From positions 103,870 to 167,869 of the IMG/VR virus record IMGVR_UViG_3300037222_000100: DNA of 64,000 bases; one strand, given 5' to 3'. The position numbers and the translations under genes were made by a program. Positions 45,202-47,544 of this stretch are shown piece by piece. The notes below the pieces were generated by a model. It did no database searches, was not told the DNA's origin, and saw only the letters and a program-made list of their open reading frames with translations. Position 1 is the stretch's first letter, and every line of letters starts with the position of its first letter. The DNA is from a virus.

Positions 45202-47544
45202 CTACATGTCTGCCCGTACGATTCCCGTCTGGGCTATGTCGGGCTTGCGGTTCCTATGCCACTGATGTTCTTCGCGATCAATGGTGGGATCGTCTTGATG
45301 CACGTCATACCCGCAGTTCTTGCAGGTGTGCTCGTTGTTGTCATCCTTGCCACACGCAGGACAAGTCCATGTGGCTGCTATGATGTGCCAATGAGACATC
45401 TCAACCCTAACGCTCTGGCCTTCATCGGGCTTGGCGCTGTGATCGGTGCTCTTGCTGGTAGCGTGCTCATTGGGCTCGCCATCCCGCTCGGCATCGTGGT
45501 CTTTGCCAGCATCGTGAACTGAGCCCTCCGAAGTCATGTAGTTCCGGGGCTGATCCTGGGGATATCCCACTGGATTAGACTCAGGGATGCTCCACGAATG
45601 ATCGTGGCCCTGCTCGGTCGCATGTAGGCCATGCACGGGACAGTCGAGCTTATGGCCTTTGTCGCAGGTGCAACCTAGAGGGTCCTCGGGATGTGGCGTG
45701 CGCTGTGCTGGCTCATCGTGAGGAATGAGCGCTGGCATCTGATCAGGCATCTCACGCGTATCTGCCTGATCGGCTGATGTCTTGATCTCGTGGACGCCGC
45801 ACACTTCGTCCTCGCCAACCTTCTCGCGTGCTTTCTGCTCATGCTTGTCGCACACGGGGATAAAGGCCATGCCCTCGGCCCAAAGCAGCGATTTGGTCGC
45901 AGGCTCTTTGCAGTACTTGCACTTGTGCGGACGTTCGGTCTTGCGAACCTTGTCCTTTGCTTGCGCCCGCATCCATGTGCGGGGAGCATCGGCATTGTCG
46001 TAGCCCACGGGGCTCGCAGGATTAGGGAAGTCCCATACATGCTCATACGCCGTCTCATCGGCGTTCATTCCATGGACGGGGCAATCAAGCTTGTGCCCAT
46101 GCTCGCAAGTACAGTCGCGGTCGGTCGGCTCGAACGCGGGCTGATCCCGCAGCGGGCCGTGCTCTTGGTTCCACGAATCAGCGAACTTCACTAGCTCACG
46201 CATGTAGGGGGCTGCTATGATGTGTGCATGCTTGGAGATATTCTGTGGGGCGGGGCTTGTCTCGTCGGACTCATTGCCATGGCGAAAGTCTGGATGCGCT
46301 AGATGTGGTTCTTGCTTGGACTCGCGCTCGGTGCTCTTTGGAGGGACCTCTGGTGGCTCTCTGACGACTCCGGGGACGAGGACGAAGACGACTGAAGCCT
46401 CCTTCTCCTCGCGTGGCGTGCTAACAGTGCTCTCTGCCGTCTTTACAGCGGGAGCCCGCAATGCGGACACGTCGTTTTGAACGAATGCGTCCCGCGTGCA
46501 ATGGCTTCCGCTACGTTCCGTTTTTGAGTCATGAGCCGTAGGTTGCTGATCCGGTTGTCCGAAGGATTGTGATTGAGATGACCAACTACCTTGTTGGACG
46601 GCGGTATCCTTTTGTGCCTCGCCATCCAAACTACCCGATGCAGCTTGACTTTGTAGGACTTGATCCCGAGGCGACGGAACGATAGCTCCGTTTCCATGTA
46701 TCCTTGACCCCCTACGTACCCAATCGCCCTGCTCCAAGGTTTGCCCTTGATCGGACGATGATGACGAAACACTTGGCCTGTCGCGAAATCGACCGTTATC
46801 CACCGCTCCTTGAGCGCCCATAGAATCGTCTCGTTGATTGTCATCATCATCGAGTATATCATCGCGAGGAGACGATACGGATGACATCGAAGTCTCGAAC
46901 GTGAGCTTGGGCGGCTTGAGTCCTTTGGGTAGGCTAGGACCATAGGCGATGGTCATGTGCGGCGCGTACTTGTCTTTCGAGTAAGGACCTGGGTCCACAC
47001 CTACGGCTTCGGCTGCCTCGGCTAGCCTGTTGTGATGATCATGAATCGTGTCCGACTCCACGAGAAGCACAATAGGATGCAGGCCATCCTTTTCTTCGCT
47101 CGGCGGGAACTCCTTGAGGCCCTTGGCCGTGACTGCATGTGATTCGTGCTCGATCCACTTAGCGTCATGATGAGAACCTGCGCCGTCGCCCTGAGCGAAG
47201 AGCATCGTGATGTGATAGTCCTCAAGCGGCTCTAGCTCCGTGCTCTCCGGCCAGTCCTGCTCCTGCACCCAGTTGTAAATCTCGGTCGCAGCCTGCTTAG
47301 GGATGTCGAGCCCGACATGTAGCTCGTCTTTCGCCTTGGCTGTCTTGGGCTCGGGCGTGAGCTTCTTCATCTGCCATTCGCGAATGCGTTGCTGCTGCTC
47401 GTCATGGACCTCGTATTCGAGAGGCGTCCGAATGTACATGCGCTCGGCTGGAGTCATCTCGATATCGCTCTTGTCCCAAGCGGCTGCCTTTTGCAGCGCT
47501 GTGAGCCCTTCTGTGGAGTTTGAGGTCTTGGCTGTGGATTCCAT
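45202..47544 (-). CDS. 780-aa multidomain protein: 2H phosphoesterase plus Cys/His motifs; hosts nested genes
   Basis: YHITM..PHMTI; two CTCxxGHKLDCPVHG; CKYC..CDKH; CPAC..CKNC. Confidence 0.8.
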   Translation of the reverse strand: MESTAKTSNSTEGLTALQKAAAWDKSDIEMTPAERMYIRTPLEYEVHDEQQQRIREWQMKKLTPEPKTAKAKDELHVGLDIPKQAATEIYNWVQEQDWPESTELEPLEDYHITMLFAQGDGAGSHHDAKWIEHESHAVTAKGLKEFPPSEEKDGLHPIVLLVESDTIHDHHNRLAEAAEAVGVDPGPYSKDKYAPHMTIAYGPSLPKGLKPPKLTFETSMSSVSSPRDDILDDDDNQRDDSMGAQGAVDNGRFRDRPSVSSSSSDQGQTLEQGDWVRRGSRIHGNGAIVPSPRDQVLQSQAASGSLDGEAQKDTAVQQGSWSSQSQSFGQPDQQPTAHDSKTERSGSHCTRDAFVQNDVSALRAPAVKTAESTVSTPREEKEASVVFVLVPGVVREPPEVPPKSTERESKQEPHLAHPDFRHGNESDETSPAPQNISKHAHIIAAPYMRELVKFADSWNQEHGPLRDQPAFEPTDRDCTCEHGHKLDCPVHGMNADETAYEHVWDFPNPASPVGYDNADAPRTWMRAQAKDKVRKTERPHKCKYCKEPATKSLLWAEGMAFIPVCDKHEQKAREKVGEDEVCGVHEIKTSADQADTREMPDQMPALIPHDEPAQRTPHPEDPLGCTCDKGHKLDCPVHGLHATEQGHDHSWSIPESNPVGYPQDQPRNYMTSEGSVHDAGKDHDAERDGEPNEHATSKSTDHSAKPDEGQSVRVEMSHWHIIAATWTCPACGKDDNNEHTCKNCGYDVHQDDPTIDREEHQWHRNRKPDIAQTGIVRADM
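45391..45522 (+). CDS. Nested antisense 43-aa membrane peptide
   Basis: TGC-TATGAT 45376-45384, ATG 6 nt later; hydrophobic product. Confidence 0.55.
   Translation: MRHLNPNALAFIGLGAVIGALAGSVLIGLAIPLGIVVFASIVN
46228..46395 (+). CDS. Nested antisense pair of membrane peptides (46228-46302, 24 aa; 46303-46395, 30 aa)
   Basis: TGC-TATGAT 46213-46221, ATG 6 nt later; TAG directly followed by ATG. Confidence 0.55.
46443..46847 (-). CDS. HNH endonuclease nested out of frame inside the 780-aa ORF
   Basis: GY..LHRVVW..VGHLNHNPSDNRISNL..T...N; TGA-TATACT 46861-46853. Confidence 0.9.
   Translation of the reverse strand: MMTINETILWALKERWITVDFATGQVFRHHRPIKGKPWSRAIGYVGGQGYMETELSFRRLGIKSYKVKLHRVVWMARHKRIPPSNKVVGHLNHNPSDNRISNLRLMTQKRNVAEAIARGTHSFKTTCPHCGLPL

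What the first reader, a model, noticed from the sequence alone, without database searches (positions are those of the whole stretch)
46400..46905. Overprinted HNH flanked by a recoded duplicate of host sequence
Seen: a complete HNH gene lies in a different frame while about 135 host codons stay stop-free. The host frame reads LTFETSMSSVSSPRD before it and AVKTAESTVSTPRE after it. The peptides are similar but the codons differ (gta tcg tct cct cgc vs gtt agc acg cca cgc). The HNH stop TAA overlaps the host codons GTA AAG, and its -10 TATACT is read as part of D-I-L in the host frame. No intein ends or obvious group I core are visible. Inference: the element arrived with a cleavage-resistant replacement for the end of the 2H domain and retains readthrough to downstream domains.
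Basis: partly seen in the sequence, partly recalled or inferred. Interest (0 to 1): 0.85.

Follow-up and report, generated by a model that had tools for sequence, protein, structure and literature searches.

The report
Hidden homing endonuclease read through by host gene
A selfish HNH nuclease gene with its own promoter sits out of frame inside a large phage protein gene whose own frame is kept stop-free, so it is probably translated straight through the intruder; this splice-free trick was first published in 2025, and this locus adds antisense relatives, a shared promoter and flanking duplicates.

Summary
An HNH_3 homing-endonuclease gene (46443-46844, minus strand) lies in the +1 frame of a 780-aa modular phage protein gene (45202-47544). 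That gene starts with an Acb1/LigT-like 2H phosphodiesterase domain. The host frame has 0 stops across the HNH where about 5.7 are expected (P about 1e-4 to 2e-3). Six free-standing HNH genes in the same 168-kb phage genome have stops in every alternative frame.

The pattern recurs in relatives from metagenomes. Nine embedded HNH genes from three families occupy six sites of homologous genes, and three of them are antisense. All leave the host frame open, and all have a TAnAnT -10 box, mostly TG- or G-extended, 6-8 nt before the ATG (a leaderless-type start).

One relative equals the window gene plus an exact 459-bp antisense HNH insert. The 13-codon flanking duplicate is real, and five of the six sites have one. 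The upstream copy completes the 2H fold.

No intron or intein signal was found. HNH-less alleles exist.

The principle was published in 2025 as the ShiLan/Pacc40 "hidden HNH". I therefore class this as a new variant of a known kind. Cleavage resistance and translation through the insert are untested.

The parts
45202..47544 (-). Host gene: 780-aa modular phage protein, made of an N-terminal helical region, a 2H phosphodiesterase domain, a linker and repeated CTCxxGHKLDCPVHG Zn-type modules.
   Evidence: ORF list. 26 homologues of 429-1339 aa share the N- and C-terminal modules within single ORFs. The gene follows a Collar-domain tail-fibre gene in relatives.
46861..47331 (-). 2H (Acb1/LigT-like) phosphodiesterase domain, aa 72-228, with HxT motifs HITML and HMTIAYG.
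   Evidence: Weak Pfam Acb1 hit, E 1.7e-4, below the curated cut-off; the L003 homologue passes it at 30.7 bits. AF2 pLDDT is 80-96. Foldseek matches phage phosphodiesterase 9q2g and Acb1 7t26 at E about 1e-6, and LigT.
46858..46896 (-). Upstream repeat copy ETSMSSVSSPRDD. It forms the end of the 2H fold.
   Evidence: Strands 215-217 and 221-224 have pLDDT 95 and 72. The same SMSSVSS tail occurs in the HNH-less allele L018.
46853..46861 (-). Extended -10-like box TGATATACT, lying 5 or 8 nt upstream of ATG 46847 or 46844. It is the predicted leaderless-type promoter of the HNH gene and is read as D-D-I-L in the host frame.
   Evidence: The same TAnAnT-N6-8-ATG geometry, mostly TG- or G-extended, occurs at all nine embedded HNH genes and before about 28 ORFs of the genome, including three free-standing HNH genes.
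46443..46844 (-). HNH_3-type homing endonuclease CDS (133 aa plus TAA) in the +1 frame of the host. In the host frame the same DNA encodes a spacer rich in Ser, Asp, Gln and Gly.
   Evidence: Pfam HNH_3, E 2e-14. PHROG HNH families, E 4e-17. Stop-free host frame, P 1e-4 to 2e-3. Spacer pLDDT is below 50 and its composition is given.
46405..46443 (-). Downstream repeat copy KTAESTVSTPREE, the displaced 2H tail. Its first codons overlap the HNH stop.
   Evidence: 32/39 nt identical to the single native tail of L010. pLDDT is below 50.
46303..46407 (-). Linker EKEASVVFVLVPGVVREPPEVPPKSTERESKQEPH, orthologous to the linker that directly follows the single 2H tail in HNH-less alleles.
   Evidence: 88% nt identity to L007 and 86% to L018.
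47305..47334 (-). Empty target site of a second, antisense HNH element. The junction lies between 47320 and 47319 (GCGAAAGACGAGCTA|CATGTCGGG), inside the first strand of the 2H domain.
   Evidence: The L008/L009 gene equals the window gene plus an exact 459-bp insert at this point, with 6 other mismatches in 2343 nt. The insert encodes an antisense HNH.
45376..45522 (+). Antisense embedded cassette: TGCTATGAT box (45376-45384), 6 nt, then a 43-aa hydrophobic peptide ORF (45391-45522) inside the 3' part of the host gene.
   Evidence: Conserved peptide (M..NPNAL...) with TGCTAnnnT-N6-ATG in the window, L003, L007, L008, L011 and L022. No Pfam hit.

Best explanation
The segment is a self-contained homing-endonuclease cassette inserted into the linker after the 2H phosphodiesterase domain of a modular phage protein. 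It consists of an extended -10 box (TGATATACT), a start codon 5-8 nt downstream that implies a leaderless mRNA, a 133-codon HNH_3 ORF, and a TAA stop at the distal edge of the insert.

There is no splicing. The cassette lies in the +1 frame and carries a stop-free 'passenger' frame. Ribosomes translating the host mRNA therefore read it as a roughly 140-aa disordered spacer and continue into the downstream Zn-motif modules.

The insert is bracketed by two diverged copies of 13 host codons. The upstream copy keeps the 2H fold complete. The downstream copy is the displaced allelic version.

What is shown: the anatomy, the HNH identity, the absence of intron or intein signals, the existence of empty alleles, the statistical excess of openness, purifying selection on related embedded HNH genes, the promoter motif, and recent mobility of a sister element.

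What is inferred: transcription from the -10 box, leaderless translation, translation of the host protein across the insert, nuclease activity and target, and the origin of the duplicate. I think the duplicate most likely arose by double-strand-break repair from a diverged donor allele with homology on one side only.
For: 1. Identity of the ORF. Pfam HNH_3 E 2e-14 and PHROG HNH families.

2. Open host frame. It has 0 stops against 5.7 expected, P 1.5e-4 to 1.9e-3. The genome-wide base rate is 1.2%. Six free-standing HNH genes of the same genome have stops in all five other frames.

3. Recurrence. Nine embedded HNH genes from three families occupy six sites of homologous genes, and every one leaves the host frame open.
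- The HNH_3 relatives in L010 and L011 use the same phase, with 5.9 and 7.8 stops expected (P 3e-4 and <1e-4).
- The antisense HNH genes in L007, L008 and L022 share one antisense phase (P 0.003, 0.009 and <1e-4).
- Within each family the same passenger phase is used at different sites.

4. The nuclease frame is the conserved one.
- L010 against L011 differ at 79 nt, 58 of them at HNH codon position 3. That gives 55 synonymous and 20 non-synonymous codon changes in the HNH frame, against 3 and 68 in the host frame. The host-frame peptide is only 59% identical yet stays open.
- L007 against L022 differ at 96, 33 and 22 sites at HNH codon positions 3, 1 and 2.

5. Recent mobility. L008 equals the window gene plus an exact 459-bp, 153-codon, stop-free insert.

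6. Empty alleles. L007/P0006 and L018 join the 2H tail directly to the same linker.

7. Promoter. TAnAnT, mostly TG- or G-extended, lies 6-8 nt before the ATG of all embedded HNH genes and of the embedded small-peptide genes. It also precedes about 28 other ORFs of the genome.

8. No independent start for the downstream modules. No in-frame promoter-plus-start motif follows the insert. The downstream modules are conserved in the host frame.

9. Structure. The 2H domain, including the upstream copy, is modelled with confidence, and residues 231-477 have pLDDT below 50.

10. Published precedent for the principle: PMC11855218.
Against: - Transcription start, leaderless translation and read-through are therefore all inferred.
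- The window's own HNH has no close relative outside three near-identical contigs. Its mobility is inferred from its patchy distribution and from the sister elements.
- Two of the six sites (the L002/L012 family) have an open host frame that chance alone would give, P 0.4-0.9.
- The published Pacc40 element belongs to the same HNH family as the antisense ones here. It lacks the TAnnnT motif, and its open frame is expected by composition. The architecture is therefore not universal.
- The host organism is unknown, so the use of leaderless mRNAs is presumed from motif geometry only.
Confidence: 0.8

Rival explanations
1. The gene is functionally split. The 2H protein ends its useful part at the insert. 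The downstream modules are made separately from an internal start, or released by a protease. The open frame is kept only to avoid polarity or premature termination.
For: The spacer and much of the downstream region are low-confidence or disordered. K-x-A motifs sit at module borders (PKTA|K before the 2H domain, ETK[VAT]A after the PVGYDY module, VKTA|E right after the HNH stop; sequences), so proteolytic processing is conceivable. Splitting of a gene by a homing endonuclease is known from Aeh1 nrdA (PMC3045599).
Against: No in-frame promoter-plus-start motif lies downstream of the insert in the window or in most relatives. Selection against stops across 133-201 codons in several independent elements is what translation through the insert predicts. 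Processing by a protease would still require read-through first.
Confidence: 0.1
2. The HNH gene is a decaying or domesticated remnant that no longer homes. The arrangement is a frozen accident tolerated in a dispensable linker.
For: The window's HNH is found only in three near-identical contigs and has no close relatives. Nuclease activity is untested.
Against: The ORF is intact with the HNH_3 motif region. Related embedded HNH genes show strong purifying selection. A sister element differs from the window by a clean presence/absence polymorphism in otherwise 99.7% identical genes.
Confidence: 0.06
3. The open host frame across the HNH is chance or a composition effect.
For: The genome is 57% G+C. 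About 1% of 140-codon windows are open in that phase. For the L002/L012 family and for Pacc40 openness is expected by composition.
Against: P is 1e-4 to 2e-3 for the window. Independent elements at three further sites (five gene copies in all) have P between <1e-4 and 0.009. The free-standing controls are closed in all frames. The phase is conserved within families.
Confidence: 0.02
4. The insert is a group I or group II intron, or an intein, that carries the HNH gene.
For: HNH genes commonly ride in phage group I introns. The insert sits in a conserved structural segment, as introns and inteins do.
Against: There is no Rfam hit at E<=1 on either strand. The HNH is out of frame, so it is not an intein. 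The host-frame peptide has no Hint or intein match in Pfam. The insert is almost exactly promoter plus ORF, leaving no room for a ribozyme core. A stop-free host frame would be unnecessary for an intron.
Confidence: 0.02

Closest known systems
ShiLan domain and Pacc40 gp60 insertion: 'hidden' out-of-frame HNH endonucleases in actinophage DNA methylase genes (Arsenault, Gosselin & Gogarten 2025, PMC11855218)
   Same: An HNH gene inserted out of frame in a phage protein gene. There are no stops in the host frame and no intron or intein features. The distribution is patchy. The stop codon is at the very end of the insert and the start a few bases inside it. There is no Shine-Dalgarno sequence, and a leaderless start is suspected. 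The Pacc40 hidden HNH is 58% identical to the antisense HNH of L008.
   Different: The host gene here is a 2H/Acb1-like modular protein of an uncultured 168-kb phage. Three HNH families are involved, and three elements are antisense to the host gene. A conserved TAnAnT -10 box lies at a fixed distance from the ATG. Recoded duplicates of host codons flank the inserts. The paper mentions no duplicate, antisense arrangement or promoter. Pacc40 shows no such box. In Pacc40 an open host frame is expected by composition (P0 = 1.0), whereas here it is strongly non-random.
Mobile endonuclease ORFs (mORFs) of fungal mitochondria that create 'gene hybrids' (Allomyces atp6; Glomus atp6, atp9, cox2 and nad3; PMC3630166)
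   Same: The endonuclease ORF is inserted in a coding gene together with a foreign, synonymously diverged copy of the displaced host segment. The native copy is left downstream.
   Different: In those cases the host gene ends at the inserted C-terminus, or runs in phase into the endonuclease, and nothing downstream is needed. Here the insert is internal, the nuclease is in another frame or strand, and the host frame continues to further modules. The duplicates here are short (5-23 codons).
Phage T4 gene 60 mobA plus 50-nt translational-bypass cassette (bioRxiv 10.1101/2022.08.31.505936; reviewed in PMC2988022)
   Same: A homing-endonuclease cassette in a phage coding gene whose damage is repaired at the level of translation rather than by splicing.
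   Different: T4 uses ribosome hopping over a 50-nt gap, and the gene is also split. Here ordinary translation proceeds through a stop-free alternative frame.
I-TevI-type autorepression: a homing-site-like operator overlapping the endonuclease's own promoter (PMC2988022)
   Same: A target-like sequence lies next to the nuclease's promoter (15/20 nt identity in T4). In L008 the 11 nt upstream of the -10 box imitate the target half-site.
   Different: No binding data exist here. The repeat is also a functional piece of host coding sequence.
Free-standing homing endonucleases that split genes (Aeh1 mobE in nrdA; PMC3045599)
   Same: A free-standing nuclease gene inserted inside a conserved phage gene that nevertheless stays functional.
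   Different: There the host gene becomes two polypeptides that reassemble. Here a single ORF is preserved.

Membership tests
Hidden out-of-frame HNH insertion element (ShiLan/Pacc40 type) | The insert is present in some alleles of a protein gene and absent from close homologues. | tested here: met
   Present in the window, P0001 and P0002/L008. Absent in L007, L018, L010 and P0003-P0007, among others.
Hidden out-of-frame HNH insertion element (ShiLan/Pacc40 type) | There are no stop codons when the insert is read in the host frame. | tested here: met
   0 stops in 140 codons, P 1e-4 to 2e-3.
Hidden out-of-frame HNH insertion element (ShiLan/Pacc40 type) | An alternative frame of the insert encodes an HNH endonuclease. 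| tested here: met
   Pfam HNH_3 E 2e-14 and PHROG HNH families.
Hidden out-of-frame HNH insertion element (ShiLan/Pacc40 type) | No self-splicing intron or intein features are present. | tested here: met
   No Rfam match at E<=1. No Hint or intein Pfam hit in the host-frame protein. Splicing itself was not tested experimentally.
Hidden out-of-frame HNH insertion element (ShiLan/Pacc40 type) | The nuclease stop codon is at the distal edge of the insert, the start is a few bases inside it, and there is no Shine-Dalgarno sequence. | tested here: met
   The TAA overlaps the first codons of the downstream repeat. In L008 the stop is 1 nt from the junction. No SD sequence lies upstream.
Homing endonuclease (active, mobile) | Site-specific cleavage or nicking of the empty allele, and copying of the element into it. 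| not testable with these tools
   Only indirect evidence: patchy distribution, purifying selection on relatives and an isogenic presence/absence pair for a sister element.
mORF 'gene hybrid' (endonuclease plus foreign copy of the displaced host segment) | Two diverged copies of the host segment flank the endonuclease ORF, and one is of foreign or allelic origin. | tested here: inconclusive
   The duplicate is present, and each copy matches a different natural allele (L018 or L010). Which copy arrived with the element is resolved only for L008, where it is the promoter-side copy. It is not resolved for the window.
Group I intron-encoded HNH endonuclease | A ribozyme core surrounds the ORF, and the host frame is interrupted. 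| tested here: not met
   One search found no model hit. The host frame is open. The insert is about the size of promoter plus ORF.
Intein with homing endonuclease domain | The endonuclease is in frame with the host and flanked by Hint splicing blocks. | tested here: not met
   The HNH is in the +1 frame, and there is no Hint match.
2H phosphoesterase / Acb1-like (host domain) | Two HxT/S motifs in a 2H fold. | tested here: met
   HITML and HMTIAYG are present. The AF2 domain matches 9q2g, 7t26 and LigT. The Pfam Acb1 score is below the cut-off in the window (21.8 against 27) but above it in L003. The substrate is unknown.

The most novel reading that the evidence does not exclude
These cassettes may form a distinct, pre-adapted class of mobile element. 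Each would consist of a -10 box driving a leaderless nuclease mRNA, an HNH ORF whose codon choice keeps one passenger frame (sense or antisense) free of stops, and a short recoded copy of the host codons it displaces. With these three parts the element could land inside conserved structural segments of phage proteins without intron or intein machinery. The target-like repeat next to the promoter could also give immunity to self-cleavage or serve as an autorepression operator. The stop-free passenger frame would then be a heritable trait of the element rather than a repair made later by the host.
Probability: 0.45. Interest if true: 0.75.

Novelty: new variant of a known kind. Interest (0 to 1): 0.6.

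Why it matters
Homing endonuclease genes were long thought to survive inside coding genes only by riding introns or inteins, or by splitting the gene. A splice-free 'hidden HNH' was described only in 2025, from two actinophage methylases. That paper left two questions open: how the nuclease is expressed, and whether the open host frame is selected.

This locus and its relatives bear on both questions.
- **Selection on the open frame.** This appears to be the first statistical evidence that the passenger frame is actively kept free of stops. In the published Pacc40 case, an open frame is what composition alone predicts.
- **Orientation.** The same solution works with the nuclease gene antisense to its host.
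- **Expression.** A concrete, conserved signal is present: a TAnAnT box 6-8 nt before the ATG.
- **Link to fungal mORFs.** The elements carry recoded duplicates of host codons, as fungal mitochondrial mORF gene hybrids do.

There is also a practical consequence. Gene callers report one long ORF and miss the nested genes. Odd low-complexity 'linkers' in large phage proteins should therefore be checked in all six frames.

Tried and rejected
- **Close relatives among cultured phages.** Megablast of the gene against 50,697 phage records found no match. tblastn found only a 66-aa module shared with Gordonia phage portal proteins.
- **Close relatives of the window HNH.** The word-based search found none. 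The exhaustive HMMER search gave relatives of at most 48% identity.
- **Intron.** The Rfam scan was negative.
- **Recombination breakpoint at the HNH.** I compared identity segment by segment with 11 relatives. This was inconclusive: the 2H domain and the linker are both closest to L007, so there is no clear donor/recipient signal.
- **L002/L012 HNH family.** Its open host frame is not significant, P 0.4-0.9.
- **Promoter motif in Pacc40.** The motif was not found upstream of the published hidden HNH, and the open frame there is uninformative. I could not fetch phage ShiLan because I had no accession for it.
- **Programmed +1 frameshift making a 2H-HNH fusion.** Rejected. The upstream extension of the HNH frame is not conserved (27 codons in the window, 9 in L010/L011), and every element has its own promoter box.
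- **Literature.** Searches for 'overprinting', 'alternative reading frame' and similar terms together with homing endonuclease found nothing.
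Full report
**Where the window comes from.** The window is bases 103870-167869 of a 167,869-bp IMG/VR virus record rated complete, with 57% G+C.

**What is at the coordinates.**
- The minus strand carries a 780-aa ORF at 45202-47544.
- Its N-terminal third is a 2H phosphodiesterase domain. Pfam gives a weak Acb1 hit at E 1.7e-4. The AlphaFold2 model is confident there (pLDDT 80-96). It matches phage phosphodiesterase 9q2g, anti-CBASS Acb1 7t26 and LigT.
- The +1 frame of this ORF holds a second ORF, open from 46943 to 46443. 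It is an HNH_3 endonuclease (Pfam E 2e-14; PHROG HNH families).

**Is the open host frame chance?**
- The host frame is the +2 phase of the HNH gene. It has 0 stops where 5.7 are expected.
- P(0) is 1.5e-4 when synonymous codons are permuted. It is 1.5e-3 when codons are redrawn from genome usage, and 1.9e-3 when codon order is shuffled.
- Across all long ORFs of the genome, 1.2% of 140-codon windows are open in that phase.
- The genome has six other HNH genes, all free-standing. Each has 1-12 stops in every one of its five other frames. One of them is a paralogue 66% identical to an embedded element discussed below.

**The host gene is one continuous gene in relatives.** Twenty-six homologues of 429-1339 aa share the N-terminal 2H domain and the C-terminal CTCxxGHKLDCPVHG modules within single ORFs. 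So do further loci from IMG/VR and JGI metagenomes. Variable modules such as cREC_REC lie between the shared ends.

**Empty alleles exist.**
- L007/P0006 reads ...TFETERSSVSTPRE-ASVVVVPVRRVVGEPPEVPPESTEHESKQEPH.
- L018 reads ...TFETSMSSVSS-RE-ASVFSFVVPVVALREPPQVTPEGTERESKQEPH.
- The window's sequence after the HNH (REEKEASVVFVLVPGVVREPPEVPPKSTERESKQEPH) is orthologous to these linkers, at 86-88% nt identity.
- The insert, counted with one repeat copy, is about 453-456 nt.

**The pattern recurs.** I scanned the homologous genes in all frames and found eight more embedded HNH genes. Every one leaves the host frame open.

| Family and orientation | Locus | Expected host-frame stops | P(0) |
|---|---|---|---|
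| HNH_3 relatives, 43% identical to the window's, same +1 arrangement, a different site | L010, L011 | 5.9, 7.8 | 3e-4, <1e-4 |
| A second HNH family, sense, other phase | L002, L012 | 0.09, 0.67 | 0.9, 0.4 (not significant) |
| A third HNH family, antisense to the host, all in one antisense phase | L007, L008, L022 | 4.2, 3.2, 6.4 | 0.003, 0.009, <1e-4 |

Within each family the passenger phase is the same at different insertion sites.

**Which frame is conserved.**
- Between L010 and L011, 58 of 79 nucleotide differences fall on HNH codon position 3. That gives 55 synonymous against 20 non-synonymous codon changes in the HNH frame, and 3 against 68 in the host frame.
- The host-frame peptide is only 59% identical between the two, yet it remains open.
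- L007 against L022 gives differences of 96, 33 and 22 at HNH codon positions 3, 1 and 2.
- So the nuclease is under purifying selection. The host frame over it is constrained only to lack stops.

**A natural before-and-after pair.**
- The L008/L009 gene is the window gene plus one exact 459-bp (153-codon) insert. Only 6 other mismatches occur in 2343 nt.
- The insert is the antisense HNH. Its stop codon lies 1 nt from one junction. Its -10 box and start lie within about 30 nt of the other.
- The junctions read GCGAAAGACGAGCTA|[CCTACA...GCACGGGACGAGCTT]|CATGTC. The element therefore brought a recoded copy (A-R-D-E-L) of the five host codons (A-K-D-E-L) that precede the insertion point.
- The insertion point lies inside the first strand (residues 74-80) of the 2H fold. 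The incoming copy restores that strand next to the domain.
- An element this recent cannot have had its passenger frame cleared of stops after arrival. The open frame travelled with it.

**The flanking duplicate.**

| Locus | Upstream copy | Downstream copy | Significance |
|---|---|---|---|
| Window | ETSMSSVSSPRDD | KTAESTVSTPREE | p = 0.012 |
| L002 | RVGADEYDSRSSQD | KFGAEEADSRAYQD | p < 0.002 |
| L012 | KEASDSWRPKT | KNASDSWRPKS | p < 0.002 |
| L007 | QQPDQYMVNA | PQDQPRNYMKAEG | not scored for these peptides |
| L022 (same site as L007) | PDAQPRSYMKNEG | LQDQPRAYMKAEG | not tested |
| L008 | AKDEL | ARDEL | not significant alone (5 aa) |
| L010/L011 | no clear repeat | no clear repeat | - |

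- In the window the upstream copy forms strands 215-217 and 221-224 of the confidently modelled 2H domain. The downstream copy lies in a stretch with pLDDT below 50.
- Each copy matches a different natural allele. The SMSSVSS form occurs in HNH-less L018. The TAES[S/T]VSTPREE form occurs in L010 (32/39 nt) and in P0003-P0007.
- Segment-wise identities gave no recombination breakpoint. For the window it stays open which copy arrived with the HNH.

**How the nested gene is probably expressed.**
- None of the embedded genes has a Shine-Dalgarno sequence. All have a TAnAnT hexamer 6-8 nt before the ATG, usually preceded by TGn or Gn.

| Locus | -10 box | Spacing to ATG |
|---|---|---|
| Window | TGATATACT | 5 or 8 nt |
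| L010, L011 | AGCTATACT | 7 nt |
| L002 | TGATATACT | 6 nt |
| L012 | TGCTATACT | 6 nt |
| L007 | AGATATAAT | 8 nt |
| L008 | TGCTACACT | 8 nt |
| L022 | TGCTAATAT | 6 nt |

- The same geometry precedes about 28 other ORFs of the genome, including three free-standing HNH genes. It also precedes a conserved antisense 40-44-aa hydrophobic peptide gene nested in the 3' part of the host gene. In the window that gene is at 45391-45522, with its box at 45376-45384.
- A -10 box at this distance would start transcription at or next to the start codon, giving a leaderless mRNA. This step is inferred from geometry only.
- By homology of N-termini (MTINETIL against MTTDEIIL) the window's HNH starts at 46844.
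- No in-frame box-plus-start follows the insert. The downstream modules therefore seem to depend on read-through.

**What was excluded.**
- Intron: no Rfam hit at E<=1, and the insert has no room for a ribozyme.
- Intein: the nuclease is out of frame and there is no Hint match.
- Chance: see the statistics above.
- Frameshift fusion: the upstream extension of the HNH frame is not conserved, and each element has its own promoter box.

**Comparison with what is known.**
I then read that paper.
- Arsenault, Gosselin and Gogarten describe the 'ShiLan domain' and an insert in Pacc40 gp60. Both are out-of-frame HNH genes inside actinophage methylase genes. The host frame is open, there are no intron or intein features, the stop is at the insert's end, and a leaderless start is suspected (PMC11855218).
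- The window's element meets every sequence-level feature of that class. The principle is therefore not new.
- The paper does not mention flanking duplicates, antisense elements or a promoter.
- I fetched Pacc40 (NC_011287). Its hidden HNH is 58% identical to the antisense HNH of L008 but lies in sense orientation. It has no TAnnnT box at the corresponding place. Its open host frame is what composition predicts (P0 = 1.0).
- The recoded duplicate has its closest precedent in fungal mitochondrial 'gene hybrids'. There a mobile endonuclease ORF brings a foreign copy of the host C-terminus and leaves the native one downstream (PMC3630166).
- Other points of comparison are the T4 gene 60 mobA/bypass cassette, the mobE-split nrdA of Aeh1, and the homing-site-like operators next to T4 intron-endonuclease promoters (PMC2988022).

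**Verdict.** The reading is supported for the read-through part and for the reality and structural role of the duplicate. It is not shown for 'arrived with' in this copy, and it is untested for 'cleavage-resistant'. The locus is a new variant of the recently described hidden-HNH kind. The new features are evidence of selection on the passenger frame, antisense members, a shared promoter architecture and flanking recoded duplicates. All expression and activity steps remain to be tested.

Noticed in passing
window 45376-45522 (+); also L003 4381-4256, L007 4447-4325, L011 4521-4393, L022 7463-7329: A conserved 40-44-aa hydrophobic peptide gene (M..NPNAL...GA..G..LIG.AVGL.IV) is nested antisense in the 3' part of the host gene. 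It has its own TGCTAnnnT-N6-ATG box. L011 has a second, unrelated antisense membrane-like peptide at 2148-2017. Function unknown.
   Followed up: partly
L007 4693-7011: The AAA ATPase gene next to the host gene is 772 aa in L007, against 419 aa in L003. It has a LAGLIDADG_3 match at residues 477-527. This is probably an in-frame intein or endonuclease insertion in the neighbouring gene.
   Followed up: partly
window 47338-47349 and 46435-46446; homologues P0003-P0012: K-x-A motifs sit at module borders: PKTA|K before the 2H domain, ETK[VAT]A after the PVGYDY...RTWMRAET module, and VKTA|E created by the HNH stop codon. Earlier scan notes proposed protease processing of large proteins in this genome. 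If that is true, the spacer might be trimmed off after translation.
   Followed up: no
window 21156-21617, 33644-33868, 36271-36432, 48611-48910, 63037-63405; G000 68753-69208: Six further HNH genes lie in the genome, all free-standing. Three of them have the same -10 box and leaderless-type geometry.
   Followed up: yes
window 45817-45930 (host aa 539-576): A small Cys-rich module (PHKCKYCKEPATKSLLWAEGMAFIPVCDKHEQKAREKV) is 45% identical to a stretch annotated within the portal proteins of eight Gordonia phage records. It is an in-frame shuffled module.
   Followed up: no
window 42337-43284 (-): A 315-aa protein is built of about 20 tandem heptads (GNSTVRA/WDNSTVE). Several other frames are open over the same repeat array.
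   Followed up: no
window 59018-61822 (-): A second large protein (934 aa) has a weak Acb1/2H-like match at residues 253-402 (E 7e-4, below the curated cut-off).
   Followed up: no
L025 (Mycobacterium phage Pacc40, NC_011287) 3872-4348: The published hidden HNH of Pacc40 gp60 belongs to the same HNH family as the antisense elements found here.
   Followed up: partly
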